NCBI GenBank assembly: GCA_964612945.1
Contig: CAZTFR010000001.1
Location: 24,418-88,417 of the forward strand
Source of the DNA: an uncultured Thermoplasmatales archaeon
GTDB lineage: Archaea; Thermoplasmatota; E2; DHVEG-1
Length of the DNA stretch: 64,000 nucleotides
Reading direction: 5' to 3'
Both the position numbers and the translations under genes were made by a program. Position 1 is the first letter of the stretch. Every line of letters starts with the position of its first letter. A model generated the notes under the pieces. That model saw only the letters and a list, made by a program, of their open reading frames with translations. It was not told where the DNA came from and did no database searches. Shown here in pieces: positions 7,411-63,300 of this stretch.

Positions 7411-8295
7411 ATGCGTGTTCTCATTATCGGTATCGACGCTCTCGAACATTTCCTCGTCGAAGAATGGAACCTCAAACATCTCAAACAAAAAGAATATGGC
7501 ACCGTGCGCGTACCACTAGCCAGAGGACTTTCGGAGCCATCGACAGAAATTGTGTGGCCCTGCTTTATCACCGGACAACCACCACGACAAATGGGATATG
7601 ATTCACCAATTCTCTACCGCCAACCCTACAAATGGCTTTTCGAACACTTCTACGCACCCTTTACCTCCTCTCACTCGGATATACACCCCGAAGACATCAT
7701 CGAAGAACGATCAACCACACGACGAATCCTTGATCAGTTTAGCAGCAGCATGATGAAAGCCGGTCTCTTTTATCATCCCACCAAAAAAGACATCACCGCA
7801 CCCACTCTATTTGACAACAACGCCATCAAATCAGCACACTTCCACATCCCTGTCTACGACAACGATGCCTTTCCCTTCGACCGCAAACTCATCTTTGACG
7901 TCCTCAACAAAACCTATCCTGCCTCACCGTTTCTCAAAACCTGCAAACAGGCCATACAGACCCGCTGTCAAGAACTAAACACCTATCTTACCAACAATAC
8001 CGATTGGCAACTGGTGATGATGTATTTTTTCACCCTCGACGCCGTCCAACATGCCTTCTACAACAAAAAACTCACCATCATGGACTTCTACCTCCTCTTC
8101 AATAACTACATCGGAACCCTCAAAAAAACACTACCCAAAAACACCCTACTCCTCATTATCTCTGATCATGGACAAAAAAAAGGCATTCACACCCTCCATG
8201 GATTCTACAGCAGCAACAAAAAACTAAAACTACACAACCCTGATATCACCACCTTCAAACCCCTCATCGAAAACCTTCTCGAGAAAAAACCATGA
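7411..8295 (+). CDS. alkaline-phosphatase-superfamily protein (type I phosphodiesterase/nucleotide pyrophosphatase-like)
   Basis: VLIIGIDAL N-terminus and C-terminal LLLIISDHGQKKG metal-site motif. Coding strand strikingly G-poor and C-rich. Confidence 0.4.
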   Translation: MRVLIIGIDALEHFLVEEWNLKHLKQKEYGTVRVPLARGLSEPSTEIVWPCFITGQPPRQMGYDSPILYRQPYKWLFEHFYAPFTSSHSDIHPEDIIEERSTTRRILDQFSSSMMKAGLFYHPTKKDITAPTLFDNNAIKSAHFHIPVYDNDAFPFDRKLIFDVLNKTYPASPFLKTCKQAIQTRCQELNTYLTNNTDWQLVMMYFFTLDAVQHAFYNKKLTIMDFYLLFNNYIGTLKKTLPKNTLLLIISDHGQKKGIHTLHGFYSSNKKLKLHNPDITTFKPLIENLLEKKP

Positions 8296-9455
8296 AACAC
8301 ATCGGCATCCTTGAATACACATATCATTCCATCTACTTTGCCACACTTGCAAAAATCACCAACACCCCTACAACCAAAGTCACCTTATGTACCACTGAAG
8401 AAATCTATCACCGTATCCTCCCGCATCTCCCTAATATCAACGACTACCACTGCATACTTAAAAACAAAACAGAAAGCATCAACAGCTTTCTCAAACGAGT
8501 GGAAACATACTGTAACAAACATATCGATCTTCTTTTTGTCAACACTATCCAGGAATCACTCAAAGATCTCCCCCATCATCTTGCCTTCAATCCTAACTGT
8601 AAAAAAATTCTTACTATCCACGATGTCAACACCTGGCTGAAACCCAAACCACAGTTTGATCTCATACGTCCCCTACGTACCTTAGACACCCTCATGAGTA
8701 CGCTACTCATTCAACACAACATCCTTCCAAAATACACAGCAATTAACGTCGTCTACCCTCCCCTAAAAGACTATGTAGAATGTAATACCACCTACGACAA
8801 ACCAATTTTCACCCTACCATTCATGCTGTATAATCCCGATAAAAAAACAAAACAAACAAAGCAAACCAAACAAATCCATTTTGTTGTCCCTGGAGAAATC
8901 ATCAACACGCGACGAGATCATCAAACCATTCTCACCGTCTTCACATCCCTCTTCAAAAAATATAAACAACGCATAAACCTCACCCTGCTTGGAAGACCAC
9001 GAGGAAACTATGGAGCAACAATACTCAATCACGCTGAAACCCTTAAAAAACAAGGATACAACATCACCTATTACAAAGAATTTGTCCCAGAAACCCTCTA
9101 CGACGAAACCCTCCAAAACGCAGATGTCATCATAGCACCTGTCAAACTACAAACCACAAGTTTGGGCACCATCAAAGAAATCTTCGGACAGACCAAAGCA
9201 TCAGGAGCACCGTACGAAGCAATTCAATACGCAAAACCACTTATTATCCCCAACGGATTCAACATGGTAAAAGAACTTACAAACTCAATCCTCCCCTATG
9301 CATCAGAAGAAGATTTACAACAACACCTCACCAAGCTTATCACAAATCCAAAAAAACTTGCGACCATTAAAAAAAACGCTCAAAAAAATGCAGCCATATT
9401 TTCCCTAAAAACTCAACAGAAATACTTCCAAGAACATATTTTAAATAAGATTTAA
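8292..9455 (+). CDS. GT-B fold glycosyltransferase-like (GT4-like C-terminal domain)
   Basis: C-terminal half has the E...ADVIIAPV...[10 protein letters not shown] pattern of GT1/GT4. Contains a [11 protein letters not shown] low-complexity repeat. G-poor coding strand. Confidence 0.4.
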
Positions 9456-9502
9456 CAATAACCAATATACTTCCCAAGAAAAAAGGTACTGGAGGAGGTA
9501 TC

Positions 9503-10543
9503 ATAAAAAAAGCATTAATCACCGGCATCACTGGTCAAGACGGCTCCTATCTTGCAGAATATCTGCTGCAAAAAGGATATGAAGTCCACGGCATCAAACG
9601 AAGGAGCAGCATCATAAAAACAGATCGCATCGACCATATCTATCAAGACCTTCACGAAGACGACCTTCGATTTATCCTTCACTATGGCGACATGACAGAT
9701 TCCAGTAATCTCAACCGAATCGTCGAACAAATAGACCCTGATGAAATCTACAATCTCGCCGCACAAAGCCATGTGAAAGTATCCTTTGATGTCCCCGAAT
9801 ACTCCGCAGAAGTAGATGCCATCGGCACCTTACGTCTTCTCGACGCAATAAAAGAGGGCGGCGTGAAATGCAGATTTTACCAAGCCTCCAGCAGCGAAAT
9901 GTACGGAAAAACCACCGAGTTTCCACAAAACGAACACACTCGATTCAACCCACAAAGCCCGTATGCCGCAGCAAAAGTGTTTGCCTATTGGGTAACCAAA
10001 AACTACCGTGAAGCATACCATATGTATACTGCAAACGGCATTCTTTTCAATCATGAATCACCACGACGAGGAGAAACCTTTGTAACCCGAAAAATAACCA
10101 GGGCCATCGCAAACATTTACCATAAAAAACAAAAACAACTATTTCTCGGCAATATTCATTCCAAACGAGATTGGGGGTATGCCCCGGAATATGTCGAAGC
10201 AATGTGGATGATGCTGCAACATCACACACCTGACGATTTTGTAATTGCGACAAACGAAGAACACAGCGTCAAAGAATTCTGTGAACATGCCTTCGATGAA
10301 ATCGGGATCACCATCGAATGGAAGGGAACTGGCGTAAAAGAAAAAGGAATCGACAAACGAACCAAAAAAACTCTTATCAAAATCGACCCATATTACTTCA
10401 GACCTACTGACGTTGAACGACTTCAAGGTGATTACTCCAAAGCAAAAAAACAACTTGGCTGGAAACCAAAAACCACCTTTAAACAACTCGTAAAACTGAT
10501 GGTACAAGCAGATTTGGAGCGTGTAGAACATGCAAACATTTGA
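9503..10543 (+). CDS. gmd: GDP-mannose 4,6-dehydratase; frame lacks ATG/GTG/TTG, probable ATA start
   Basis: N-terminus (I)[36 protein letters not shown] aligns with the Gmd N-terminus. Open frame 9449..10543 has no ATG/GTG/TTG before the Rossmann motif. GGAGGAGGT sits 7 nt upstream of ATA at 9503. Confidence 0.8.
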
Positions 10544-11501
10544 CATAAAAAACGATACCATACTTCTCACCGGTGGTAACGGCTTTCTGGGAAGTCACAC
10601 CGTCGAACGATTCCACCAAGACGGAGCAAAAAATATCGTCACTTTTTCAAGTAAAGACTATGATCTCCGAAAAGAAGAGCAGGTCAAACAGCTCTTCGAT
10701 GATCATCCAAAAATTGATATCGTAATCCACATAGCAGCAGATGTAGGAGGTATCAAATACAGTAGCACCTATCCCGGTCAACAATACTACAATAATATCA
10801 TGATGAACACCCTCATCCTTCATTATTCCTACCTCAACAAAGTAAAAAAAGTTGTAGGCATAGGAAGCGTCTGCGAATACCCAGAAATAACACCAGTACC
10901 CTTCAAAGAAGACGATGTGTGGAATGGCTACCCGGTACCCACCAATGATGCCTATGGACTTTCAAAACGCTCCCTTCTTGCTCAAAGCATTGCATATAAC
11001 AAACAATATGGATTCAACGCGATTCATCTCCTCCCAATCAATCTCTATGGTCCCCGGGATGATTTCAGCCTTGAAAACTCACATGTCATTCCTGCCCTTA
11101 TCATAAAGTTTGATGAAGCAACAAGAATGGGAAAACAATCCGTTGACGTATGGGGGAGCGGAGAAGCAAGCAGGGAATTTGTATATGCTGAGGATGCTGC
11201 TGATGCTATTGTTCTTGCCACTAAAAATTATAACAAAATAGATCCTGTAAATATTGGGACGGGCACAGAAATAAAGATTCAACACTTAGCAACTACCATT
11301 GCAAATCTGATGGGCTATAAAGGAGACATCGTCTTTGATAAAACACAACCCGAAGGACAACTTCGCCGCCAGTTAGATATCTCCAAAGCAAAAAAAGAAT
11401 TTGGGTTTACCGCCCAGACTTCACTTGAAAAAGGATTACAAAAAACAATTGAATGGTACCGTAAGAAACGATCTCAATTTGTTAACCAAATTCGTACTTA
11501 G
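10530..11501 (+). CDS. fcl: GDP-L-fucose synthase-like (GDP-4-keto-6-deoxy-mannose 3,5-epimerase/4-reductase)
   Basis: [13 protein letters not shown], YxxxK and the overall GMER-like pattern. Overlaps the gmd stop by 14 nt. Confidence 0.7.
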
Positions 11502-36683: not shown

Positions 36684-38207
36684 TTATTTTTGTTTTATTT
36701 CCCCTGAAATATAGTGATACATTTTTTTGATATTGAAGGTATCAAGTAAGAAGAGTATATCTTTTTTGGTGAATTCTCTACAAATGAAGAGTATTCCAAG
36801 ATATATGCCAAGGCCAAGGAGGCTGATAGCAAGGAGGCTATACCAGCGGTTGATGACTAGTATTCCTGATTCGAAACTGATCCAGTAGAGAATGATGCTC
36901 ATTATGCTGCTTGCGAATAGGTGAAGGATGAGGCGGTAGTTGAATCGTACTTGTAATATCTTATATACGGTGTATCTGCAGTAGAGATATCCAAGGGTGT
37001 ACGAAATCACGGTTGCTATCGCGGCGCCGGTCGGGCCGAGGCCAAAGAGGGTAAGTCCGAGGCTTTGTATGTCTTTTGGGATGAGAAGAATATTTAATAA
37101 TACATTTGTTGTGACCATGAGAAGTATTCTGTTTCTTTCAAGTTTTGGTTTATCCATTCCTAAGAGTTGCGAGTGATAGGGTATGGAGAGTGCGTAGAGG
37201 AGTGCATATATGGGGAGGATGCGGAAGATGGGAATGGCGGGGATGAATTCTTTGGAAAGGAGGATGGTGATTGCTGGTGATGCAAGGACGATTATCCCTG
37301 CAACCATGGGGAAGGTGAGCATGCTGACGTATCGTTCGGATTGATGAAGGATTTGTTTGATTGCTTTTTTGTCGTTTTTTTTGTGCAGTGCAGAAATGGT
37401 TGGGAAGAGTAATCCTCCGATGCTGCTTCCCGCCATGACGATGAATCCGGTGATGCGAAATGTTGCAAAGTAATAACCTACATCGTTTGCGTTGTAGAAC
37501 ATCTGAATAAGGACTTTGTCGATATGTGTCATGATGAGGGCGGAGCTGCTGACAATGAGGAGGGGCCATGCGAAGGTGAGATATTTTTTGAAGCTTTCTT
37601 TTGTTGGTTTTTTGAGAGGGTATCCTTTGAAAAATACAAGACTGCTGAGAAAGAGGAAGAAATGACCAAAGACGTATGCGAAAGCAAGTTCGATGGCGCC
37701 AAATCCTGAGATCGCCACGTAGATGATTGCACCGGTCCGGGCGATGGTTCCAATGAGTCGGGGGAGGTATGTTTTTGCAATTTTTGTTTGTGCGGTAAAG
37801 GTTATTTGAAAGATGGTCGCTGTTTTTTCTAATATAAAATAAAGCAGGATAATGTAGATTGCGGCTTCATGTATTGGTGTTTCAAATCCTCTTCCGATGA
37901 TGAATAGCCAGAAGAAGACGGTACCAATAGTCAGAGCGGTCATTATTGAAAGAAGTATTAGCTTTACCGAAAGAAAGGTTCCAATGCAGGTTCCAAGATC
38001 TTCTCCTCCAGAAACTCGTTTTATGTGTGCTTCGTTGAACCCGAGGCTTGAAACCATGGTGAATAAACCGACATATCCGATGGCAAACCCGATTATCCCA
38101 TAGTCGTATGGTCCGAGATATCGCGCGATGAAAAATAATGAGACATAGGCTAATATGGCATCGAGAATATCGGTTGTCATGATAAGAAGTGTTTTTCTTG
38201 CGATCAT
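36684..38207 (-). CDS. wzx: Wzx-like polysaccharide flippase (MOP superfamily)
   Basis: 507 aa with about 12-14 predicted TM helices and a polysaccharide-biosynthesis-protein topology. Convergent with the cluster end. Confidence 0.65.
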   Translation of the reverse strand: MIARKTLLIMTTDILDAILAYVSLFFIARYLGPYDYGIIGFAIGYVGLFTMVSSLGFNEAHIKRVSGGEDLGTCIGTFLSVKLILLSIMTALTIGTVFFWLFIIGRGFETPIHEAAIYIILLYFILEKTATIFQITFTAQTKIAKTYLPRLIGTIARTGAIIYVAISGFGAIELAFAYVFGHFFLFLSSLVFFKGYPLKKPTKESFKKYLTFAWPLLIVSSSALIMTHIDKVLIQMFYNANDVGYYFATFRITGFIVMAGSSIGGLLFPTISALHKKNDKKAIKQILHQSERYVSMLTFPMVAGIIVLASPAITILLSKEFIPAIPIFRILPIYALLYALSIPYHSQLLGMDKPKLERNRILLMVTTNVLLNILLIPKDIQSLGLTLFGLGPTGAAIATVISYTLGYLYCRYTVYKILQVRFNYRLILHLFASSIMSIILYWISFESGILVINRWYSLLAISLLGLGIYLGILFICREFTKKDILFLLDTFNIKKMYHYISGEIKQK

Positions 38208-38294
38208 CGATGTTTTCGTCTGGCGAATCGATGCTGAGATATATTAACTCGATGGAAAAAATTGGAGAGGTAGAATCTGTTGTATACCTTTTTT

Positions 38295-38702
38295 TCAACC
38301 GATGACTTGTACGACTTGTTTGTTGACGATTAGAAATTCTACAAGTTCCTCGGTATTTTGTAATTCTTTCAGGAGATTATACTCGATGATGTGTTCATAT
38401 TTTGTGAGCACGCGGCTGCCGCTTGGTGACCAGCTACCGATTTCGATGTGATGAGCGTCAAAGCTTTTGACGCCTCCAAGTATGGTGTAGGATTCTGTGA
38501 TAATGCGGAAGTTGCATTGGGAGCATTCGATAACAGTTTTGTAGGGTGTATATGGTGAGTCTTTATCGGTGATGGGTTCGATTTGGACCATAGCGAGAGG
38601 TGCGTGGCATTGTGGGCATACCATGTTTTTTGAGGCAGATTGTGACCAGATACTTTCTAGTATTTTCATGTTTTTTTGAAAATTTGTCTCACCAGGATTC
38701 AT
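38295..38702 (-). CDS. zinc-ribbon protein (CPQC...CSQC)
   Basis: 135 aa with CPQCHAP...x25...CSQCNF. Confidence 0.35.
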   Translation of the reverse strand: MNPGETNFQKNMKILESIWSQSASKNMVCPQCHAPLAMVQIEPITDKDSPYTPYKTVIECSQCNFRIITESYTILGGVKSFDAHHIEIGSWSPSGSRVLTKYEHIIEYNLLKELQNTEELVEFLIVNKQVVQVIG

Positions 38703-38819
38703 TCCTATACTTATCGTTGCTTCTTATTTATATAGTTTTGTATGACTTGCGGTGTTTTTTTTTTTTTTATTTTCCGCATCTCTTATTAGTGTGTTTTTTT
38801 ATTTTGATGTTGGGTTGTT

Positions 38820-39608
38820 ATGAAGAAGATTGTAACGTTTTTATCGGATTTTGGTTCGTCTGGTGGATATGTTTCGCAGATGAAGGCAGTGGTGCTGAGT
38901 TTGTGTGATGCCTGTCTGGTGGATGTGTCGCATGATATTGCTCCGCAGAATGTGCGTGAGTGTGCGTTTGTGTTGCGGAGTGTGGTTCCGTTTTTTCCGG
39001 TTGGTTCGGTGCATGTATGTGTGGTTGATCCTGGCGTGGGGACCGATCGTCGTGGGATTTTGGTTGCATCAAAAAAGCATGTTTTTGTTGGTCCGGATAA
39101 TGGGTTGTTGATTCCGGCGGCTCGTTTGTTTGGTGATTTTAAGGTTTTTTTGATCGAAAATGAGGAGTTTATGGTTCGGCCTGTTTCTGATACGTTTCAT
39201 GGTCGTGATGTGTTTGCATCGGTTGCAGGTCATGTGGTTAATGGGGTGTCTTTTGAGCGTTTTGGTCGTCGTGTTTCTGATTTTGTGGATATGGATTTTG
39301 GTCCTTCTGATTTGATTGAGGGGGGTGTTGTTGGTGAGGTGTTGTTTGGTGACCGATTTGGAAATGTGGTGACTAATATTTCTAGTTCTATGTTTTTTGA
39401 GCGTTTTTCTTTTGGTGAGAATTGTACTTTGAGAATTGGGAAAAAGAGACGTAAGGTAGTGTGCGCGCGTTCGTTTGGTCATGTTTCTTCTGGTGAGTTG
39501 TTGGTGTATGTGGGGAGTAGTGATTTTGTTGAGGTTGGTGTTAATAGAGGGAGTGCGTTTGAGGTGTTGGGTGTGTCTGTGGGTGATGTAGTGTCGTTGG
39601 TGGGTTAA
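38820..39608 (+). CDS. SAM hydroxide adenosyltransferase (DUF62, fluorinase/chlorinase-like SAM hydrolase family)
   Basis: FLSDFGSSGGYVSQMKAVV, DVSHDIAPQNV and VDPGVGTDRRGI hallmark motifs. Coding strand is extremely G+T-rich (73% in a counted 60-nt sample). Confidence 0.8.
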   Translation: MKKIVTFLSDFGSSGGYVSQMKAVVLSLCDACLVDVSHDIAPQNVRECAFVLRSVVPFFPVGSVHVCVVDPGVGTDRRGILVASKKHVFVGPDNGLLIPAARLFGDFKVFLIENEEFMVRPVSDTFHGRDVFASVAGHVVNGVSFERFGRRVSDFVDMDFGPSDLIEGGVVGEVLFGDRFGNVVTNISSSMFFERFSFGENCTLRIGKKRRKVVCARSFGHVSSGELLVYVGSSDFVEVGVNRGSAFEVLGVSVGDVVSLVG

Positions 39609-39826
39609 AATTTTATGAGTGCGTCAAGGAGTCCGTGTGCGTAGTTGATGCATCCGAAGGCGGTGTAGTGGTCTTTTTTTTGCAGGTAATATTGTGCGTC
39701 TTGGTAGTATTGGGTGGCTAGTTGTATGATGTTTTGTTGTTGGGTTGTGTAGGTGTGTTCTTTTGTTGTTTTTAGGTTTTCTTCGAACATTTCTATGTCT
39801 TTTTGGGTGCGTGTTTTTTGGTCCAT
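39605..39826 (-). CDS. hypothetical small helical protein
   Basis: 73-aa ORF (…QYYQDAQYYLQKKDHYTAFGCINYAHGLLDALIKF). Lies in an A/C-rich antisense strand where stop codons are depleted, so it may be spurious. Confidence 0.2.
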   Translation of the reverse strand: MDQKTRTQKDIEMFEENLKTTKEHTYTTQQQNIIQLATQYYQDAQYYLQKKDHYTAFGCINYAHGLLDALIKF

Positions 39827-39995
39827 ACTGGTTGTTCTCGGGTGTGTTTACCGTTTGTGTTTTGATAAGGTTTTTGTTTTTTTTTTGTCGTTTCTGAGGC
39901 GATGTAATGTTTTGTCGTTTTGGTGGCGACATAATGGAAAAGTATTTATAGTTTTTAAATTAACTTTTTTATATATAATATAGCGTTATATATGT

Positions 39996-40391
39996 TTGAT
40001 GGGTATGCGCCGCTTCCGAATTGATAAAGGCACTGAGCATGCGATTTATGATATGTTTAAGTCGCGAGCGGAAGCGCGGATTTATTTGTTTTTGTTACGG
40101 AAGAATGGCGCGCGTAGTGATCAAATAGTAAAGGGCACCCATCTGCATCCGAGTACGGTGCGTGAGTTGTTGGTACGTATGTATCAGCGGCGGGTGATTT
40201 CTCGCAAAAAGCTTCGCAATGATTCTATTGGGAAGAATCCGTATGTGTATCATGTAATCTCTCCCGTAGTATTGCTGCAGAAGTATGCAAGGGAGTTGGA
40301 GGCCCGTTTGAATAAGCTTGCGAATTTATCAGGTGGAGAGAGCAAACATGTGGTGAAAATCAAGATCAGCGGGGGTGATGATAACGCATGA
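39996..40391 (+). CDS. winged-helix transcriptional regulator (TrmB/MarR-like)
   Basis: 131 aa with ARIYLFLLRKNGARSDQIVKGTHLHPSTVRELLVRMYQRRVI wHTH. ATGA overlap with the downstream exporter. Confidence 0.5.
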   Translation: MMGMRRFRIDKGTEHAIYDMFKSRAEARIYLFLLRKNGARSDQIVKGTHLHPSTVRELLVRMYQRRVISRKKLRNDSIGKNPYVYHVISPVVLLQKYARELEARLNKLANLSGGESKHVVKIKISGGDDNA

Positions 40392-42625
40392 TGAGTAAAA
40401 AAATTGCCACGGTGTTGGTGCGTCATCCCAAAATGGTATTGATTGTGTTTACGTTGCTGACGTTGCTGGTTGGTTCTCAGGCTCTGAATGTGTATATGAT
40501 TTCAGATTTATCTGGGTATCTACCAGCGGATCATCCCTCGCTTCAGTTGTGGGATCAGATCAATGAAGAGTTTCAGATTGGGTCAACGATTATGATTTTT
40601 GTTGAGGCAGATGATATTCGTGATCCCTACGTGCTTATTGAGATGGATCGGGTCAGCTCAAAGGTGAATCAGTATGATTTGGATCATGGTGATCTTGATG
40701 GTGTTGTGTCGATTCGAAGTATTGCCAATCTAATAAAAAAGGAAAATGCAAAACCAAAGCTTCCCGGTGGTCTGGGTGGCTCTGGTAAATTTGAGATGCC
40801 AACAGATTCTAGCTTGATTTCTACGTATATGGCTCGCTCGCTAGTCCAGCAAACAGAGGGGTTATTGTTTATCGACAATTTTGAGGTTGCCGTTGTTATC
40901 ATTCAGTTGTCTGATGATGCTGATTATTCAGAGGTATTAAGCCGGGTCGAAGCAGCAATTGATCGCGAGGCTCGATATTCTGATATGATGGTGACAGGTC
41001 TTGCGGCGATGCAGCGTGCGATTCAAGAAGAGAGCATGCAGAGTTTGTTGATTGTCTTTCCGATTGCGATTGCGTTGATTTCTGGGGTGATTTTTTTCTT
41101 CCAACGTACGTTAAAAGGAATTATCATTGTGTTTTTACCGCTGACGTATGCGCTGACGTTGACCTTTGGGGTGATCGCGGTGGTGAATCCAGCGTTGACG
41201 TTGCTTTCAATTGCAGTTGTTGCATTATTGATTGGGCTAGGGGTGGATTATTCGATTCATATTTTGAACCGGTTTGCAGAGGAGAGTACGGTTGATGATA
41301 AGGTTAACCGGGTTTCAAAAACGTTAAAATTGACCGGGAAAGCTGTGTTGCTTTCCTCAATTACTACTATTATTGGTTTTGGTTCGTTGTTGGTCTCAAG
41401 TATGCCACCGATCATTACGTTTGGGTTTGCCTGCGTGATTGGTATCATGTTTTGTTTTATCTCTGCAACAATTGTGGTGCCTTGTTTAGCATTGGTGTTA
41501 AAGTATGAAAAGAATGGTCATACCTATGAGTGGAAACGGGTGTCAAGAATTTCGATTACAAATAAGAAACGATTTGCGTTGCTTGCAGTGTTTTTAGCTG
41601 TGATGTCGCTTGTAGTGCTCCCCCAGATCAAGACTGATGTCAGTTATCTTGAGTTGGCACCGGAGGGTATTCCTGAGGTAGAAAAATATGTGGAGTATGC
41701 TGAGATTTTTGGCGGTGGAACCAATGTCAATTTGATGTTGGTGGAAACTAATTATCAAGGTTTAACCTATCCAGAAACCATTGAAGCAATATATAAGATG
41801 GAAGCGCGGATGCGTGCCGCAGGTGCTACTGTTACCTCTGTTGCAGATGCCCTGTATGATGTCAATGAGGTTTTGAATCGAAATCAGATTATTGAAAAGA
41901 TTGCTGATATTGGTGATGCCGAAGAAATAATTTTCAATTCCATTGCTCGTGAGGGATTGGTAAATGAGGACTATTCGAAAACGGTGTTAATCATCACCTT
42001 TCCGGTAGGTTTGAGTGCAGCCCAGTTAGGGGTCCTTGTCGATGAGATGAATACGATTGCATCAGAAACCTATATTCCACATGGAGGACGAATTTCTCGA
42101 TTGACAGGGCAGGACGCAATCAACGTGGAGATTAATCAATTGTTAACGGATGAGCAGACCCGTTCGATGATTATCGCGTTGCTTTTGGTGTTGTCTATTT
42201 TAATTCTCATTTTTAATTCCAGTCTGTGGGGCTTTCTCACTATGATTCCAGTGATCTTTGTGTTAATTTGGGAGCCTGGATTTCTCGTCATCACCGATAT
42301 ACCTCTGTCTGTTCTCACCATATCTATTGCATCAATTATGATTGGTATTGGTATTGATTATGGTATTCATATCACTCAGCGTGTTCGTGAGGAAATGGAG
42401 TTAGGGCTCTCGAAGATGAAGGCAACAGAGCGGGCAATCGAAAAAACAGGATTTTCACTGGTGGAGGCTTCTGCAACAACCATTGCAGGGCTCTGTTCTG
42501 TATATTTTGTTGATATTCCGGCCTTGCAACAGTTTGGTACCATTGTAATTATTATGACCGCATCATCGCTTGCAGCTGCGATATTTGTGCTGCCTATCTT
42601 TTATAGTCCGCGGTTTGTCAAATAA
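40388..42625 (+). CDS. MMPL/RND-superfamily membrane exporter
   Basis: 745 aa with two 6-TM bundles each followed by a large loop. GLGVDYSIH and GIGIDYGIH duplicated MMPL motifs. Confidence 0.75.
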   Translation: MMSKKIATVLVRHPKMVLIVFTLLTLLVGSQALNVYMISDLSGYLPADHPSLQLWDQINEEFQIGSTIMIFVEADDIRDPYVLIEMDRVSSKVNQYDLDHGDLDGVVSIRSIANLIKKENAKPKLPGGLGGSGKFEMPTDSSLISTYMARSLVQQTEGLLFIDNFEVAVVIIQLSDDADYSEVLSRVEAAIDREARYSDMMVTGLAAMQRAIQEESMQSLLIVFPIAIALISGVIFFFQRTLKGIIIVFLPLTYALTLTFGVIAVVNPALTLLSIAVVALLIGLGVDYSIHILNRFAEESTVDDKVNRVSKTLKLTGKAVLLSSITTIIGFGSLLVSSMPPIITFGFACVIGIMFCFISATIVVPCLALVLKYEKNGHTYEWKRVSRISITNKKRFALLAVFLAVMSLVVLPQIKTDVSYLELAPEGIPEVEKYVEYAEIFGGGTNVNLMLVETNYQGLTYPETIEAIYKMEARMRAAGATVTSVADALYDVNEVLNRNQIIEKIADIGDAEEIIFNSIAREGLVNEDYSKTVLIITFPVGLSAAQLGVLVDEMNTIASETYIPHGGRISRLTGQDAINVEINQLLTDEQTRSMIIALLLVLSILILIFNSSLWGFLTMIPVIFVLIWEPGFLVITDIPLSVLTISIASIMIGIGIDYGIHITQRVREEMELGLSKMKATERAIEKTGFSLVEASATTIAGLCSVYFVDIPALQQFGTIVIIMTASSLAAAIFVLPIFYSPRFVK

Positions 42626-46082: not shown

Positions 46083-46137
46083 TACTCTCTTTTTTTTCCC
46101 ATTGCTCACAGTGCATTTGAGAGGTTGTCTTTTTATG

Positions 46138-46211
46138 GGCTTGTAGCTCAGCTAGGTAGAGCAATCGGCTCTTAACCGATTGGCCTGGGGTTCGAATCCC
46201 CACAAGCCCGC
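46138..46211 (+). tRNA. tRNA-Lys (anticodon CUU)
   Basis: Hand-folded cloverleaf. Acceptor GGGCTTG/CAAGCCC. D-arm GCTC-AGCTAGGTA-GAGC. Anticodon stem ATCGG/CCGAT with loop CTCTTAA. T-arm TGGGG-TTCGAAT-CCCCA. Discriminator G. No encoded CCA. Confidence 0.85.
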
Positions 46212-53222: not shown

Positions 53223-53987
53223 ATGAAAACAAAAATTGCTGAGACTCCAACAGCCGTCAAATCACTCAATTTTATTCAGACCTTTCATCAGAAAAAACCA
53301 GAGAAAACCTCACTTATCGTCATTGGAGATTGCATGGTTGATTATCGGGGGCGAGCACAATCGTTTCTTGATTGGGGGGAACGTATATTGCTTATCAAAC
53401 AAGATGAAACCGTTCTTGTTCACCGACCAACTATGCGTGAACCGGTCAACTGGCAGCCCGCAGGATCGACAACCTCGTGGAAGGTTGAAAACAACCGTTT
53501 GGTCCTTCGCTGTCGCCATTCCCAGCCACCGGAAAAAATGAAAGTCGTTTTCCGATCGCAAATCGCATTGCTGGTCACGTCTCTTTGTGATCAAGCACAG
53601 CTTGCAATCGCAGGCATGGAAGTTGATGTGGTCAATCAGATTATTTGTGATCCAAAGGTTATCGAGGAGGGCCTACGGATTAACAAACGGGAAAAACAGG
53701 TAAAATCAGGTATGATCGATCTGTATGGATATGACAAAAATCATACCCCTGTGGTCATAGAGGTAAAACGCAGCCTTGCCACCATTAGTGCGGTACATCA
53801 ACTTCGCATGTATGTCAATGACATCAAAAACGATGTCAAAGAAGCAGAAGTGCGAGGGATTCTTTGTGCACCCAAAGTTCCAGATATGGTCAAACATTTA
53901 CTTTCCGACTATGGTCTTGAATGGCAAGAAGTTGAACGACAGGTTATTCTCCCGGATGATTTTCAAAAAACCCTACAAGATTTTTAA
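53223..53987 (+). CDS. nucS: endonuclease NucS/EndoMS (mismatch-specific RecB-like nuclease)
   Basis: VDYRGRAQS and REPVNWQPAGS N-domain. C-terminal IDLYGYDKNHTPVVIEVKR PD-(D/E)xK core. Confidence 0.85.
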   Translation: MKTKIAETPTAVKSLNFIQTFHQKKPEKTSLIVIGDCMVDYRGRAQSFLDWGERILLIKQDETVLVHRPTMREPVNWQPAGSTTSWKVENNRLVLRCRHSQPPEKMKVVFRSQIALLVTSLCDQAQLAIAGMEVDVVNQIICDPKVIEEGLRINKREKQVKSGMIDLYGYDKNHTPVVIEVKRSLATISAVHQLRMYVNDIKNDVKEAEVRGILCAPKVPDMVKHLLSDYGLEWQEVERQVILPDDFQKTLQDF

Positions 53988-60103: not shown

Positions 60104-60375
60104 TTTTTCAATCAGTTTTTTTAAACTAACAATTCAGTAGAAAGAAGAGAACCAATCTATGGATACGGTGAAGGCAGGTCTTCGTATTGTCAATGTGCAT
60201 TATCTTTTTTTTAGTACTTAACAGTACACTCTTCTTATTTCGATGATTGTATCTTGGAATATTTTTTCAAACTATGAAGATTCTTTTTGGATTTGGTATT
60301 TATAAAATATAAAGCTTTTTTTTTAGAAATATTTATATATTACAATATATAATAATATGCTGGGGTAATAAAAGT

Positions 60376-63300
60376 ATGACAACGAAAATGATTGAATTCT
60401 CTCTTTGTATGCTGTTGATTATCGGATCACTCAATCCTGTAATCGCAAATGAAGAAATAGAAGAATTAGAAGAAGATATCTATGTAGTTACGTCCACCTC
60501 GGCTTTTACACAACCAATAGTTAATGATATCCAATTGGATGGAAACAAGTATCATCAGATACAATTAAACGGCCTTTCCAATGGTGGAAGTCCAGGTGAA
60601 CCATTGTTGCCTATGAAAGCCGTAAGACTATTACTACCACCTAAAACTACAGTTGAAACTATTCAAATCCATTCTTCATCTCCTGAAATAATATCACTTG
60701 CTCATCAAATTGAACCGGCAGGAGAACCTGTCCCCTTATCACAAATGAAATCAGCAAGTCCTCCTCAACCTGATCCACTAGTGTATAATTCTTCAGATCC
60801 TTTCCCAGGTGAGCTCTTTAAGAAGGGTGGTACGTATTATTTTAGAGGATATTCTGTGTTAGTAATTACTCTTTTTCCGGTTCAGTTTCTCCCGACAAAA
60901 AATAAAATTCGATATTACAGTGAAATAACAGTTTCAGTAGACCTGCAGAGCAATGAAAAAAGAAAAAGTCCTCTTTATCGAGGATTAGAAACTGATAAAA
61001 CTGATATTTTAAATAAAATTGATAATCCCGAGGTTATTCACTCTTATGATTCAGAGAATAGTATCTCTATTGCCTCTTATGATCTACTGATTATTACTGA
61101 CGATCAATTCAAGGAGGCCTTTGCTCCTTTAAAACATGCCCATGAGTTTCTAGGGAATCCAACAATTATACAAACCCTTACAGACATTGGAAGTGATAAT
61201 CCAGAGGATATCAGAGATTTTATCCGAGATGCTTACTTGAACTGGGGGATTCAATATGTACTTATAGGCGGCGATAGTCATATTGTTCCCACGGCCAAAT
61301 TAACAAGTTATCAAACATTAATACCCTCTGATCTCTATTATGCCTGTCTTGATGGAACCTTCAATTATGATAACGATGAATACTGGGGAGAACCGACAGA
61401 TGGGGAGAGTGGTGGTGATGTTGACCTTATTGCAGAAGTCTATGTCGGCCGTGCCTGTGTTGATGATTGCGTAGATGTAAAGACCTTTGTTAACAAGACA
61501 ATAGCATATATGACAAAAAATTCCTCTCTAGAATATTATGATAACGTGTTATTAGTGGGAGAAAATCTTGGTTTTGGAGGAATAGCCGAATGGGGCGGCA
61601 ATTATATGGATGAGCTCATTGATGGATCAAAAACCCATGGATATGAAACCGTTGGAATACCCTCAGACAAGTACAATATTGATACATTATATGACAAGGA
61701 TTGGCCGACTCAAAATTGGCCACAAGAAGAAATCATCAAAAAGATAAATAGAGGAACACAATTGATCAATCATCTTGGTCATTCCGGTTATAATTATAAT
61801 ATGAACGTAGGAAATCGTGATGTTATTCTCTCCCTTACAAATAATGAAACCTGTTTTATTTACTCACAGGGATGTGAAGCGGGGGATTTTGATTACCCTT
61901 ATGCAGATTGTATAGCTGAATATTTCACTGTAAAAACTAAACATGGCGCATTTGCAGGAATTTGGAATTCAGAAGATGGGTTTGGCAAAAGTGGGAGCAC
62001 AGATGGTCCATCGCAACGGTTTCACAGAGAATTCTTAGATGCGATCTTTGGGGAAAACATCACAATACTGGGAAAAGCAAATCAAGATTCTAAAGAGGAC
62101 AATCTCTATCGAATCAACGAAACGGTCATGCGGTGGTGTTACTATGAGTTAAATTATTTTGGTGATCCCTTACTCCATTTTGATTTGCCAGATCATAATG
62201 TTGGTGTTGGGAGGATATTTGCTCCAACTCATTTACAATCTCCACGAACAATATCTCTCAATGCCGCTGTTTTCAACAAGGGAAGACATGATGAAGCCAA
62301 TATATCAGTAACTATCCAAATTAATGGAGTTGGCGTTCATTCAGAAATGATTCCGCATCTTCAACGCGCTAGCCAACAATATATCAATTATTCTTGGACG
62401 CCACAAGAAATAGGTTTGTATAATATAACCGTTCAGGTATCAATTCCAGGATATAAAGACGATATACCCTCTGATGATACAAGAACTATCACTATCGCAA
62501 TAGGTGTTCAGAATCTCAATACAACAGAGTGCTTTGCTACAATTCAAGAGGCAATTGATGATTCAGATACGTTAGATGGTCATTGTATCTTTGCTCCATC
62601 TGGCATTTATACGGAGAATATTGTAGTAACAAAAGGTATTTTCTTGCTAGGTGAAGATAAACAAACCACGATACTCCAGAGTACTACATATCATAATACT
62701 GTTGTATCAGTTGAACAAACTGTTGGATTTAGAATTTCAAACTTTCTCATACAAAACGGAAAAACTGGTATCTCTCTTAAGTTTTGTTTTAATAGTGTCG
62801 TCGATGGTAATCGTATTAAAAATAATTTTAAAACTGGCATTGTTTTTCGTTCGTCTGCGAATGGATTCATCAGAGAAAATGAAATCGCTGATAATAGTTT
62901 AGGAGTTCATCTAGCCGGCTGTTCAAATAATATCTCTATTCTTTTCAATTCCATTCATGACAATACTGAAATAAACATTGAAAATCTACCAAATCTCACT
63001 GAAGGATCGATCATCATAAAGACTCCAGAGGAAAAAGGTGGAATTTTTCTTGAAAACACTGACCAATCTGTACTAAAAAATAACACTATTTCTTATAATT
63101 TCATAGGGATTCGCATTCTTGGGGATAGTAAGGGAAATTGCATTATTCACAATATGTTCATAAATAATACAGAGAATTGTTATGATGAAGGACTGCATAA
63201 TCAATGGGATGATGGTTTTCCACTCGGTGGCAATTATTGGTCGATGTATACTGGAGATGATCACTATCGCGGACCAGATCAAGATCGAATTTATCCTGAT

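What the first reader, a model, noticed from the sequence alone, without database searches (positions are those of the whole stretch)
38700..39995. About 1.3 kb G+T-rich, A-poor compositional island containing the DUF62 SAM hydroxide adenosyltransferase gene
A 60-nt sample (38941-39000) has A 8%, C 18%, G 37%, T 37%. Neighbouring genes are A-rich and purine-loaded on the coding strand. The skew continues through the intergenic stretch 39827-39995, which contains the near-repeat TTTTGTCGTTT twice, and stops abruptly at the regulator gene at 39996. The encoded protein is clearly a real DUF62 family member but is extremely Val/Gly/Phe/Ser-rich. This suggests recent horizontal acquisition from a compositionally different donor or a localised mutational regime. 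The A/C-rich antisense strand is nearly stop-free, so ORF finders produce long spurious antisense ORFs here.
Basis: seen in the sequence. Interest (0 to 1): 0.5.

Follow-up and report, generated by a model that had tools for sequence, protein, structure and literature searches.

The report
Strand-skewed native gene pair, not imported
A 1.3 kb stretch of an uncultured Thermoplasmatota archaeon's chromosome has one DNA strand made almost entirely of G and T; it is not foreign DNA but two long-resident, back-to-back genes reshaped by a one-strand-specific mutation pressure whose physical cause is unknown.

Summary
Positions 38700-39995 are A 15.5%, C 10%, G 30%, T 44% on the + strand. G+T is 0.74, against 0.50 ± 0.05 for other windows of the same length.

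The island is a tail-to-tail pair plus both flanking promoter regions: a DUF62/SAM-hydrolase gene (+) and a DUF357 gene (-). At four-fold degenerate sites the + strand is 89-91% G+T in both genes despite their opposite orientation. This is therefore a DNA-strand effect, not codon preference.

Horizontal acquisition is refuted. The order p135-DUF62-DUF357(-TrmB-MMPL) is conserved in eight related Thermoplasmatota loci, G+C content is ordinary, and the best hits are the syntenic orthologues.

The island is the apex of a wider same-sign domain (about 36.7-42 kb, weaker to 52 kb). The closest clade shows a milder version (GT3 0.66-0.82). Polarised substitutions on this lineage run A,C→G,T eight times more often than the reverse. 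They produce mirror-image amino-acid shifts (Tyr→Phe in DUF62, Phe→Tyr in DUF357) and faster protein evolution.

A mirror-image A+C-rich domain of native genes lies at 7.4-11.5 kb.

The best reading is a localised strand-asymmetric mutation pressure. Its physical cause (single-strand exposure during replication or transcription) is inferred, not shown.

The parts
38295..38702 (-). Small conserved protein 'p135' of unknown function. It forms the left shoulder of the island, and its 5' half (38480-38702) already lies inside the segmented G+T-rich block.
   Evidence: ORF. Orthologues are 61-64% identical at the same position in L004-L007 and are also present in L001, L002, L009 and L090. Plus-strand GT3 is .73. 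The segmentation boundary is at 38480.
38703..38819 (.). Divergent intergenic (promoter) region between p135 and DUF62. It is extremely T-rich on the + strand, with a T14 run at 38755-38768.
   Evidence: Composition is A .13, C .11, G .16, T .60. T runs are listed. The alignment to relatives is poor apart from the TATA-like ATATA.
38820..39608 (+). DUF62 / SAM hydroxide adenosyltransferase (S-adenosylmethionine hydrolase) gene, 262 aa, intact and full length. It forms the core of the island.
   Evidence: PF01887 at 5.7e-51 plus PF20257 at 3.9e-23. Full-length match to PDB 2zbu at 1e-49 and to PH0463 2wr8 at 5e-40. Third positions are A .08, C .02, G .36, T .54. Four-fold sites are G+T .89 with GC skew .90. 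Residues encoded by G/T-only first-and-second positions (FLVGCW) make up .48, against .33-.39 in orthologues.
39605..39826 (-). DUF357 gene, 73 aa, convergent with DUF62 and overlapping it by 4 nt. Its coding strand is A+C-rich, so the + strand here is as G+T-rich as in DUF62.
   Evidence: PF04010 at 7.6e-19. Coding third positions are A .49, C .43, G .04, T .04, giving plus-strand GT3 .92. Four-fold sites are G+T .91. The same tail-to-tail overlap occurs in L004-L007.
39827..39995 (.). Divergent intergenic region between DUF357 and the TrmB-like regulator. It holds two tandem 27-nt units (39883-39936), each a palindrome of the form TTTTGTCG-N9-CGACAnAA. These are probable operator sites. A TATA-like AAGTATTTATAG follows at about 39940-39951.
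   Evidence: Tandem Repeats Finder result. Regex positions 39886 and 39913. The region aligns at 82% mean column identity with four relatives, with the palindromes nearly invariant (alignment A1). Composition is A .21, C .08, G .22, T .50.
39996..40391 (+). TrmB/TFIIE-alpha-like winged-helix regulator. It marks the right edge of the bulk-composition island, but it is still skewed at synonymous sites.
   Evidence: Pfam PF02002 and PF01978. GT3 is .71 here against .32-.48 in orthologues. Lineage-specific A,C→G,T changes outnumber the reverse 2.8 to 1.
36684..42625 (.). The wider domain of same-sign synonymous-site skew, of which the island is the apex. It runs flippase(-), p135(-), DUF62(+), DUF357(-), TrmB(+), MMPL(+). 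A weaker continuation reaches about 52.3 kb.
   Evidence: The sliding third-position profile shows a plateau of .7-.8, a step to .85-1.0 over 38870-39821, and a decay to .55-.7 by 42 kb. In 36.68-52.3 kb, + genes (n=12) average plus-strand GT3 .65 and - genes (n=8) average .66.
39069..39482 (-). Longest antisense ORF (137 aa) inside the DUF62 gene. It is spurious and exists only because stop codons are rare on the T-poor - strand. The ORFs at 38818-39072(-) and 39624-39932(-) are spurious for the same reason.
   Evidence: No Pfam match. The antisense frames carry 2-7 stops per about 262 codons, against 11-30 in the sense off-frames.
7411..11501 (+). Mirror-image domain of four + strand sugar-pathway genes: a phosphodiesterase-like gene, a GT1 glycosyltransferase, GDP-mannose 4,6-dehydratase and an epimerase. 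Here the + strand is A+C-rich.
   Evidence: Four-fold sites are G+T .19-.33 with GC skew -.62 to -.79. GT1-GMD-epimerase are syntenic and 56-82% identical in L089-L091, where the skew is mild or absent.

Best explanation
The island is a native, vertically inherited, convergent and overlapping gene pair (DUF62 → ← DUF357) together with its two flanking promoter regions. It sits at the apex of a multi-kilobase chromosomal domain in which one DNA strand (the window's + strand) has been driven towards G and T.

The driver is a strand-asymmetric directional mutation pressure: A and C are lost, G and T are gained. A weak form of the skew was already present at this locus in the common ancestor with the nearest sampled clade, and it was strongly amplified in this lineage.

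The pressure acts on the DNA strand and not on the coding strand. It therefore gives DUF62 G/T-ending codons and a Val/Gly/Phe-rich protein, and it gives the oppositely oriented DUF357 A/C-ending codons and a Gln/Thr/Tyr-richer protein. Both proteins remain under purifying selection and keep near-normal family scores.

Shown here: nativeness, strand specificity, direction, lineage specificity and local rate acceleration.

Inferred only: the physical cause. The substitution asymmetries are A→G over T→C, C→T over G→A, A→T over T→A and G→T over C→A. These are what base damage (deamination, depurination, oxidation) to a preferentially single-stranded + strand would give. My best guess is that the + strand is exposed as lagging-strand template by rightward replication forks across the domain. 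The DUF62-DUF357 unit would then go further for one of two reasons. Either rightward DUF62 transcription and read-through adds non-template-strand exposure, or this pair is under the weakest codon and amino-acid constraint.
For: 1. The genes are native.
- The order p135-DUF62-DUF357-TrmB-MMPL is identical in L004-L007.
- The same genes occur in the same order in L001, and p135-DUF62-DUF357 in L002, L009 and L090.
- The top protein hits are those orthologues.
- The DUF357-TrmB intergenic operator region is 82% conserved.

2. The effect is on the DNA strand.
- Plus-strand G+T at four-fold sites is .89 in DUF62(+) and .91 in DUF357(-).
- Both intergenic regions are skewed the same way.
- Across the window, intergenic G+T tracks the GT3 of the flanking genes: r = .80, p = 1e-7, or r = .59 without the island's own spacers.
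- In 36.7-52.3 kb, + and - genes have the same mean plus-strand GT3.65 and .66.

3. The island is locally extreme.
- Island against its four neighbours at four-fold sites: 144/17 against 459/229, Fisher p = 1.2e-9.
- The step in the third-position profile falls exactly over the two genes.
- Among 87 DUF62 homologues GT3 is .50 ± .08, and this gene is .90, a z of 4.7.

4. There is an ancestral weak version.
- In L004-L007 GT3 is .66-.74 for DUF62 and .69-.82 for DUF357, dropping to .32-.48 at TrmB.
- The more distant L001 (DUF62 GT3 .50) and L090 (.58 and .52 for the two genes) are unskewed.

5. Substitutions on this lineage are directional.
- With L004 = L005 = L001 taken as the ancestral state, A,C→G,T against G,T→A,C per available site is .351 against .045 in DUF62 (7.8-fold, p = 1e-17).
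- The same ratio is 7.7-fold in DUF357, 2.8-fold in TrmB and 2.3-fold in MMPL.
- The L005 control lineage shows no such bias.
- A second polarisation with L090 as outgroup gives 5.7-fold, p = 3.5e-14. In it, every one of the six complementary substitution pairs is asymmetric in the direction that enriches the + strand in G/T.

6. Amino-acid changes mirror each other. Tyr→Phe in DUF62 and Phe→Tyr in DUF357 are the same + strand A→T change.

7. Protein evolution is locally faster.
- Tajima relative-rate test with L001 as outgroup: DUF62 48 against 19 unique changes (p = 4e-4), DUF357 10 against 2 (p = .02), p135 17 against 5 (p = .01).
- TrmB (16 against 11) and MMPL (70 against 56) are not significant.

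8. Both genes are still functional members of their families. Pfam scores are 172.6 + 82 bits against 177-188 + 77-93 in orthologues, and DUF357 scores 67.9 against 64-68. DUF62 matches PDB structures over its full length.
Against: - The physical cause is not demonstrated.
- A pure replication explanation fits poorly with a native domain of opposite sign only 25 kb away (7.4-11.5 kb) and with near-neutral stretches between and beyond. Only 64 kb is visible, and no origin or Orc1/Cdc6 gene was seen among the genes annotated.
- A pure transcription explanation fails. The leftward genes DUF357, p135 and flippase are skewed in the same + strand direction as rightward DUF62. No G-cluster or G-quadruplex (R-loop-initiating) signal is enriched.
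- T→G is among the commonest changes and is not a classical single-strand damage signature.
- Part of the 'locality' in bulk composition may reflect weaker protein constraint on DUF62, which is the least conserved protein among the relatives too, and not a locally higher mutation bias.
- Polarisation rests on parsimony with few, fairly distant relatives (47-74% amino-acid identity).
- Quartet support for the placement of this lineage's DUF62 and DUF357 is ambiguous.
Confidence: 0.72

Rival explanations
1. Allelic replacement. The p135(5')-DUF62-DUF357 segment was swapped by homologous recombination for the orthologous segment of an unsampled, more strongly skewed relative. Synteny is kept, but composition and divergence jump locally.
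For: - Faster divergence is confined to p135, DUF62 and DUF357, while TrmB and MMPL are clock-like.
- The third-position profile has step-like edges at the gene boundaries.
- DUF62 of this lineage is hardly closer to its sister clade (.52-.57) than to L001, L002 or L009 (.50-.52), although MMPL shows .69 against .55.
- Quartets are ambiguous. For DUF62, 10-13 sites group W with L005 and 7-10 group W with L090. For DUF357, 3-4 sites put W outside.
- The neighbourhood is recombinogenic: the flippase to the left is of the L090 type (62% identity) and not the L005 type (37%).
Against: - For p135 and DUF357 the outgroup-unique counts (22 and 8) far exceed the L005-unique counts (5 and 2). This is expected if W and L005 are sisters and W simply ran faster.
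- The flanks outside the putative tract (flippase, TrmB, MMPL) carry the same-sign skew and the same directional substitution bias at 2-3 fold, so the process operates in this genome anyway.
- The donor would still need the same strand-specific regime at the same locus, so this moves the question without answering it.
Confidence: 0.1
2. Gene-specific codon usage. DUF357, p135 and flippase use A/C-ending (translationally preferred) codons, and DUF62 happens to use G/T-ending codons. Their opposite orientations merely make the + strand look uniformly G+T-rich.
For: - Most strongly skewed genes in the window have A+C-rich coding strands whichever DNA strand they lie on: 7411-11501 (+), 4347-5315 (-), flippase, p135, DUF357, RpiA and GNAT (-).
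- In the relatives most genes are A3-rich on the coding strand and DUF62 is the T3-rich exception.
Against: - Non-coding spacers carry the same skew, and it correlates with the flanking genes.
- First and second codon positions and amino-acid composition shifted in complementary ways in the two genes.
- Tyr→Phe and Phe→Tyr are mirror changes.
- The + genes in the domain (TrmB, MMPL, Tpt1, 50435) are shifted the same way on the + strand, that is, the opposite way on their coding strands.
- This reading needs a coincidence that recurs in five genomes.
Confidence: 0.07
3. Horizontal insertion of a foreign DUF62 cassette from a compositionally different donor.
For: The composition is extreme, and the protein is only 47-57% identical to any other sequence in the database.
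Against: - Synteny is conserved in eight related loci.
- The best hits are the syntenic orthologues.
- G+C is .41 against a window mean of .40.
- No repeats or paralogues were found in the window, and no flanking tRNA: the only one, tRNA-Lys, is 6 kb away.
- The flanking regulatory region with its operator palindromes is conserved with relatives.
Confidence: 0.03
4. Targeted enzymatic hypermutation. A diversity-generating retroelement or a DNA deaminase would act on this locus.
For: Loss of adenine to all three other bases is prominent in DUF62 (A→G 28, A→T 25, A→C 7). This superficially recalls adenine-directed retroelement mutagenesis.
Against: - There is no template repeat or second copy anywhere in the window.
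- The affected span is 1.3 kb or more and continues through spacers and neighbouring genes.
- The changes are fixed, mostly conservative and compatible with full family scores.
- Third positions are the most affected, as expected for long-term mutation bias filtered by selection.
Confidence: 0.03
5. Assembly or sequencing artefact, for example damaged or deaminated template DNA or a chimeric contig.
For: Only one contig in the protein database carries this exact protein.
Against: - Both reading frames are intact with full-length family matches.
- The changes respect codon structure and conserved motifs.
- The operator and promoter elements are conserved.
- A milder version exists in four independently assembled relatives.
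Confidence: 0.02

Closest known systems
Replication-associated strand compositional asymmetry (G>C and T>A on the leading strand; violation of Chargaff's second parity rule). Reviewed in PMC3269012 and PMC3269016.
   Same: One DNA strand is enriched in G and T irrespective of gene orientation. The effect is visible at synonymous sites and in spacers and leaks into amino-acid composition. The substitution asymmetries (C→T over G→A, A→G over T→C) are those attributed to deamination of the strand that is more often single-stranded.
   Different: The scale is kilobases, not replichores. A native domain of opposite sign lies 25 kb away and near-neutral stretches lie between. No origin or terminus is identifiable in the window.
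Whole-genome G/C strand disparity in some uncultured lineages, for example the Microgenomates Ch65 genome (PMC7143001).
   Same: Both are uncultured, metagenome-derived organisms with an unusually strong disparity between the two strands that gene distribution does not explain. In both cases it is shared, to differing degrees, by related lineages.
   Different: There the disparity is chromosome-wide, concerns G against C only (29.8% C against 15.0% G), and has no A/T component. Here it is a patchwork of domains of both signs, and the apex has an equally strong T over A skew.
Transcription-associated mutagenesis and R-loop-linked GC skew (PMC3787257, PMC6411842, PMC2866735).
   Same: Both are local, strand-asymmetric and mutation-rate-raising. 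For DUF62 the G/T-rich strand is the non-template strand. The bulk island runs from the DUF62 promoter region to the last T-runs (39674-39886) before the next promoter.
   Different: DUF357, p135 and flippase are transcribed the other way, yet they are skewed in the same DNA-strand direction. No G clusters or G-quadruplex motifs are enriched. There are no expression data.
Local parity-rule deviations in archaeal chromosomes attributed to gene-orientation bias (bioRxiv 10.1101/2023.11.15.567178).
   Same: Both concern local deviations from the second parity rule in an archaeal chromosome.
   Different: That work attributes local deviations to biased gene orientation and not to mutation. Here the deviation is the same in oppositely oriented genes and in spacers, so orientation cannot be the cause at this locus.

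Membership tests
SAM hydroxide adenosyltransferase / DUF62 (PF01887 + PF20257) | Both the N-terminal and the C-terminal domains are present at full length and above the curated cut-offs. | tested here: met
   172.6 bits (cut-off 26.3, profile positions 1-145 of 145) and 82 bits (cut-off 25.5, positions 1-83 of 84). Orthologues score 177-188 and 77-93 bits.
SAM hydroxide adenosyltransferase / DUF62 (PF01887 + PF20257) | Conserved motifs are retained (DPGVGT..R, GPDNGLL, TFHGRD, D.FGN) and the sequence resembles solved members. | tested here: met
   Columns invariant with six relatives include D70 P71 G72 V73 G74 T75 R77, G91-L97, T125-D130 and F180 G181. Full-length matches to 2zbu (1e-49) and to PH0463 2wr8/1wu8 (about 1e-40).
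SAM hydroxide adenosyltransferase / DUF62 (PF01887 + PF20257) | Enzymatic hydrolysis of S-adenosylmethionine to adenosine and methionine. | not testable with these tools
   The activity is known for PH0463-type proteins from the literature (my own knowledge).
DUF357 (PF04010) | Domain match above the curated cut-off. | tested here: met
   67.9 bits against a cut-off of 29.4, E = 7.6e-19. Orthologues score 64-68 bits.
Horizontally acquired genomic island | Absent from the equivalent position in related genomes. | tested here: not met
   The same gene order is present in L004-L007, L001, L002, L009 and L090.
Horizontally acquired genomic island | Atypical G+C content, flanking repeats or a flanking tRNA, and best hits in a foreign lineage. 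No search for mobility genes was run on the island itself; its only ORFs beyond DUF62 and DUF357 are the three antisense ORFs with no Pfam match. | tested here: not met
   G+C is .41 against .40. Only the operator tandem repeat is present. The single tRNA is 6 kb away. Best hits are the syntenic Thermoplasmatota orthologues.
Replication-associated strand asymmetry | The same DNA strand is enriched in G and T regardless of gene orientation, including non-coding DNA. | tested here: met
   four-fold G+T .89 and .91 in opposite genes; + and - genes average .65 and .66; spacer correlation r = .80.
Replication-associated strand asymmetry | Replichore-scale extent, with the sign switching only at an origin or terminus. 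| tested here: inconclusive
   Within 64 kb there are domains of both signs and neutral stretches. No origin markers were seen among the genes annotated. The whole genome was not available.
Transcription-associated or R-loop-linked strand asymmetry | The skew sign follows the direction of transcription, with a G/T-rich non-template strand. | tested here: not met
   This holds for DUF62, TrmB and MMPL but is reversed for DUF357, p135 and flippase. It could be rescued only by unverified read-through from DUF62.
Transcription-associated or R-loop-linked strand asymmetry | G-cluster initiation zones or G-quadruplex-prone sequence on the non-template strand. | tested here: not met
   There is no R-loop-initiation-type G cluster in the island. 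The G4Hunter maximum is 1.48, and only 13 of the 145 windows above 1.2 fall in the island.
Diversity-generating retroelement target | A nearby template repeat differing mainly at adenines, plus a reverse transcriptase. | tested here: not met
   There is no similar sequence elsewhere in the window (best blastn E = .07 over 19 nt) and no paralogue.

The most novel reading that the evidence does not exclude
Some uncultured archaea carry kilobase-scale chromosomal domains in which one strand undergoes a persistent, locus-anchored, mitochondrion-like single-strand damage regime. Possible causes are a long-lived R-loop or D-loop, a fixed fork-pausing or recombination-dependent replication-initiation site, or a strand-specific repair gap. 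The regime would be heritable at the same syntenic position across a clade, of either sign at different loci, and strong enough to remodel protein composition and speed protein evolution several-fold. The DUF62-DUF357 pair would be its clearest footprint. The 7.4-11.5 kb domain, and the similar mosaic in the unrelated MAG locus L003, would be further examples.
Probability: 0.15. Interest if true: 0.7.

Novelty: new variant of a known kind. Interest (0 to 1): 0.42.

Why it matters
If the reading is right, three things follow.

1. Extreme local composition in a metagenome-assembled archaeal genome can mark the oldest resident genes and not imports. The 'normal-looking' 25 kb glycan cluster to the left is the more variable part between relatives. 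Composition-based island and horizontal-transfer detectors would therefore call this locus wrongly.

2. Strand-specific mutation pressure can be strongly heterogeneous along an archaeal chromosome at the kilobase scale. It can also be independent of gene orientation. This bears on the current debate over whether archaeal skews are mutational or simply reflect gene orientation.

3. It gives a clean natural example of mutation pressure rewriting two proteins in complementary directions (Tyr→Phe in one, Phe→Tyr in the other) while both stay functional.

Practically, the T-poor antisense strand generates long false ORFs, and the G-poor mirror domain appears to have cost a gene its canonical start codon. 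Both are annotation hazards.

Tried and rejected
- **Exact-sequence lookup.** Looking up the DUF62 protein and its database twin P0001 to fetch the rest of the 109.7 kb source contig found nothing on record. Genome-wide skew could not be computed.
- **Species-representative genomes.** The scan returned only three loci at or below 50% identity. The organism's own genome is not retrievable there.
- **Structured RNA.** Rfam and ARAGORN found only tRNA-Lys at 46137-46211. No structured RNA explains the island.
- **Template repeat or paralogue (retroelement idea).** None was found.
- **R-loop or G-quadruplex motifs.** They are not enriched.
- **Substitution spectra among the four close relatives.** Counting singleton changes gave mixed signals: A→G exceeded T→C, but G→A exceeded C→T in DUF62+DUF357. 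I do not rely on this. The remaining C sites are constrained, and singleton changes on the L004 branch cannot be polarised.
- **Quartet analysis.** Testing vertical descent against allelic import gave too few informative sites to decide.
- **Strand-symmetrised oligonucleotide signature test for foreignness.** I considered it and did not run it. Strong skew distorts such signatures whatever the origin, and the synteny evidence is far more direct.
- **Literature searches.** Searches for kilobase-scale skew islands in archaea or Thermoplasmatota found nothing specific.


Full report
**1. What is there**

The window is chromosomal DNA of an uncultured Thermoplasmatota archaeon.
- Homologues of the DUF62 protein in the same search carry source names such as Thermoplasmatota/Thermoplasmatales archaeon; the window's own protein has no source name.
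- Housekeeping genes are present: RpiA, Tpt1, TGT, NucS and tRNA-Lys.
- A large surface-glycan gene cluster fills about 1-37 kb.

The flagged span 38700-39995 contains five features.
- A 117-nt divergent spacer.
- An intact DUF62/SAM-hydroxide-adenosyltransferase gene at 38820-39608 (+), matching PF01887 at 5.7e-51 and PF20257 at 3.9e-23.
- A DUF357 gene at 39605-39826 (-), matching PF04010 at 7.6e-19. It converges on DUF62 and overlaps it by 4 nt.
- A 169-nt divergent spacer.
- The start of a TrmB/TFIIE-alpha-like regulator at 39996.

**2.

- The 1296-nt span is A .155, C .102, G .304, T .439, so G+T is .743. All non-overlapping windows of equal size give .499 ± .054 with a maximum of .622.
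- Likelihood segmentation isolates 38480-39926 as the most G+T-rich segment of the window, at .74.
- The antisense frames are nearly stop-free, and their ORFs have no family match.

**3. It is a property of the DNA strand, not of the coding strand**

- Third positions of DUF62 are A .08, C .02, G .36, T .54.
- Third positions of DUF357, read on its own coding strand, are A .49, C .43, G .04, T .04. On the + strand both genes are therefore 90-92% G+T.
- At four-fold degenerate sites the figures are .89 and .91. GC skew is .90 and .82, and T-over-A skew is .70 and .83.
- The two spacers are T .60 / A .13 and T .50 / A .21.
- Across the window, spacer G+T correlates with the plus-strand GT3 of the flanking genes: r = .80, or r = .59 without the island's own spacers.
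- In 36.7-52.3 kb the twelve + genes and the eight - genes have the same mean plus-strand GT3.65 and .66.

**4. The island is the apex of a wider domain**

The sliding third-position profile has four phases:
- a plateau of .7-.8 across the flippase and p135 genes (36.7-38.7 kb);
- a step to .85-1.00 exactly over DUF62 and DUF357 (38870-39821);
- a return to about .75 in the regulator;
- a decay to .55-.7 by 42 kb.

The step is significant at four-fold sites: 144/17 against 459/229 for the four neighbours, p = 1.2e-9.

The island stands out in raw sequence partly because the pressure has also penetrated first and second codon positions there. G+T at those positions is .71 and .62 in DUF62, against about .48 and .45 elsewhere.

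**5. It is not imported**

- Four relatives (L004-L007) have exactly the order p135(-), DUF62(+), DUF357(-), TrmB(+), MMPL(+), including the 4-nt tail overlap.
- L001 has the same genes in order with insertions. L002, L009 and L090 have p135-DUF62-DUF357.
- The best protein hits are those orthologues, at 52-57% identity.
- The DUF357-TrmB spacer aligns at 82% column identity with the relatives. It contains two tandem palindromes, TTTTGTCG-N9-CGACAAAA, just upstream of a TATA-like element.
- In this genome the first palindrome's right arm reads CGATG instead of CGACA. That is a + strand C→T plus an A→G change.
- G+C content is unremarkable, and there is no repeat or second copy.

**6. Comparison with orthologues**

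- Among 87 DUF62 homologues fetched with their DNA, coding-strand GT3 is .50 ± .08. This gene is .90.
- The four syntenic relatives are the next most skewed group.66-.74 for DUF62 and .69-.82 plus-strand for DUF357. Their skew falls to .32-.48 at TrmB, at the same spacer where the island ends here.
- More distant syntenic genomes are unskewed: L001 .50, L090 .58 and .52.
- The locus therefore had a mild same-sign skew in the common ancestor with L004-L007, and this lineage amplified it.
- Relative to L005, plus-strand G at third positions rose by .16-.27 in every gene from flippase to MMPL regardless of orientation, while C stayed low.

**7. Direction and rate of change**

I took sites where L004, L005 and the outgroup L001 agree as ancestral. 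Changes on this lineage, oriented to the + strand, are as follows.

| Gene | A,C→G,T per site | G,T→A,C per site | Ratio | p |
|---|---|---|---|---|
| DUF62 | .351 | .045 | 7.8 | 1e-17 |
| DUF357 | .182 | .024 | 7.7 | .0016 |
| TrmB | .298 | .106 | 2.8 | 5.5e-4 |
| MMPL | .185 | .082 | 2.3 | 1.1e-7 |
| p135 | .145 | .087 | 1.7 | n.s. |

- The L005 lineage shows no such bias.
- A second polarisation with L090 as outgroup, pooled over p135, DUF62 and DUF357, gives 5.7-fold, p = 3.5e-14.
- In that test every complementary pair is asymmetric towards + strand G/T. The per-site rates are A→G .153 against T→C .035; C→T .093 against G→A .013; A→T .124 against T→A .029; C→G .056 against G→C .007; G→T .080 against C→A .019; and T→G .100 against A→C .048.
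- The amino-acid consequences mirror each other. DUF62 gains Val, Phe and Arg at the expense of Ile, Tyr, Lys and Thr. Residues from G/T-only codons rise to .48 from .33-.39.
- DUF357 gains Gln, Tyr and Thr at the expense of Glu, Phe, Lys and Ile.
- Tyr→Phe in one gene and Phe→Tyr in the other are the same + strand A→T event.
- Tajima relative-rate tests with L001 as outgroup show this lineage's DUF62, DUF357 and p135 evolving 2.5-5 times faster than L005's: 48 against 19, 10 against 2, and 17 against 5. TrmB and MMPL are clock-like.
- Both proteins nevertheless keep essentially normal family scores and full-length similarity to solved structures.

**8. A mirror image in the same window**

- Genes at 7411-11501 (+) are a phosphodiesterase-like gene, a GT1 glycosyltransferase, GDP-mannose dehydratase and an epimerase.
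- Their four-fold G+T is .19-.33, and GC skew is -.62 to -.79.
- They too are native. GT1-GMD-epimerase and the five genes to their left are syntenic and 54-82% identical in L089, L090 and L091. There the skew is mild (GC skew -.18 to -.47) or absent.
- This lineage has therefore amplified strand skew in at least two native domains of opposite sign. The intervening 25 kb glycan cluster differs in content between relatives and is near-neutral.
- The unrelated MAG locus L003 (labelled Methanosarcinales) shows a similar mosaic. Its DUF62 gene (GT3 .81-.83) lies in a G+T-rich domain spanning genes of both orientations. Its appearance among the hits is probably helped by convergent amino-acid composition.

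**9. Mechanism**

Shown here: the skew is native, strand-specific, directional, lineage-amplified and locally rate-accelerating.

Inferred: the cause.
- The asymmetry pattern is deamination-type A→G and C→T, plus depurination/oxidation-type A→T and G→T, all on the + strand.
- From established knowledge of replication- and transcription-associated asymmetries (PMC3269012, PMC3269016, PMC10030826), this is what is expected if the + strand is more often single-stranded.
- Rightward replication would do this over a domain, by exposing the + strand as lagging-strand template. Rightward transcription of DUF62, reading through the terminator-less tail overlap to the T-runs at 39674-39886, could add to it locally.

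Neither explanation fits fully.
- Replication alone does not explain opposite-sign and neutral domains within 30 kb.
- Transcription alone is contradicted by the leftward genes sharing the + strand skew.
- No R-loop-type G clusters are enriched.
- T→G is unexplained.
- Weaker constraint on DUF62 may exaggerate the apparent locality.

Rivals are ranked in the Rival explanations section. The only one I cannot push below about 10% is allelic replacement from an unsampled, more skewed relative. That rival would still require the same regime in the donor.

**10. Verdict**

- The horizontal-transfer reading is rejected.
- The 'localised mutational regime' reading is supported and sharpened. The island is the apex of a kilobase-scale, orientation-independent, strand-asymmetric mutation domain on native genes.
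- This is a variant of a known kind of phenomenon, strand compositional asymmetry. It is unusual in its small scale, its amplitude, its conservation at a syntenic locus, and its coexistence with an opposite-sign domain.
- Interest is moderate. It would rise if whole-genome and population data showed a locus-anchored process.

Noticed in passing
window 7411-11501: A mirror-image compositional domain: four + strand sugar-pathway genes whose + strand is A+C-rich. Four-fold G+T is .19-.33 and GC skew is -.62 to -.79. GT1, GMD and the epimerase are syntenic in relatives L089-L091, where the skew is mild or absent.
   Followed up: partly
window 9446-9712: The GDP-mannose 4,6-dehydratase reading frame has no ATG, GTG or TTG upstream of its Rossmann motif. 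From the in-frame stop at 9446-9448 it reads ..[23 protein letters not shown] (9500) and ATA (9503) follow a GGAGGAGG at 9491-9498. Homologues are 341-346 aa, but the database copy of this gene is called from the internal ATG at 9692 (283 aa). This may be a non-canonical ATA/ATC start, or a lost ATG, in the G-depleted strand.
   Followed up: partly
window 39883-39951: Two tandem 27-nt units, each a palindrome of the form TTTTGTCG-N9-CGACAnAA, followed by a TATA-like AAGTATTTATAG. They are nearly invariant in four relatives. They are a probable operator pair for the adjacent TrmB-like regulator, or for the divergent DUF357 promoter.
   Followed up: partly
L003 7284-14001 (CAZCCY010000008.1, MAG labelled Methanosarcinales): A different archaeal MAG also shows a mosaic of strongly strand-skewed domains, with windows from A .10 to A .43. 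Its DUF62 gene has GT3 .81-.83 and sits in a G+T-rich domain spanning genes of both orientations.
   Followed up: partly
window 11584-36677 compared with L090 9466-12694 and L091 10033-17026: The glycan-biosynthesis cluster between the epimerase and the flippase is hypervariable among relatives: about 25 kb and 24 genes here, against 4 genes in L090. It is compositionally near-neutral, so it is probably the most recently exchanged part of the window. The flippase at 36684-38207 is of the L090 type (62% identity) and not the L005 type (37%).
   Followed up: partly
window 60104-62650: A 2.5 kb stretch with no ORF of 70 aa or more on either strand, no Rfam match and ordinary composition. It may be decayed genes or non-coding DNA.
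   Followed up: no
window 53223-53987: A NucS/EndoMS mismatch endonuclease gene (PF01939 + PF21003) is present. The lineage therefore has the non-canonical archaeal mismatch repair enzyme, which is relevant background for any mutation-bias hypothesis.
   Followed up: no
L004 1-3159, L005 1-1491: In the relatives the syntenic block is preceded by a family B DNA polymerase gene. In L004 it carries intein and LAGLIDADG hits. Its third-position skew (.43-.49) differs from that of the adjacent leftward gene array (.54-.70).
   Followed up: no
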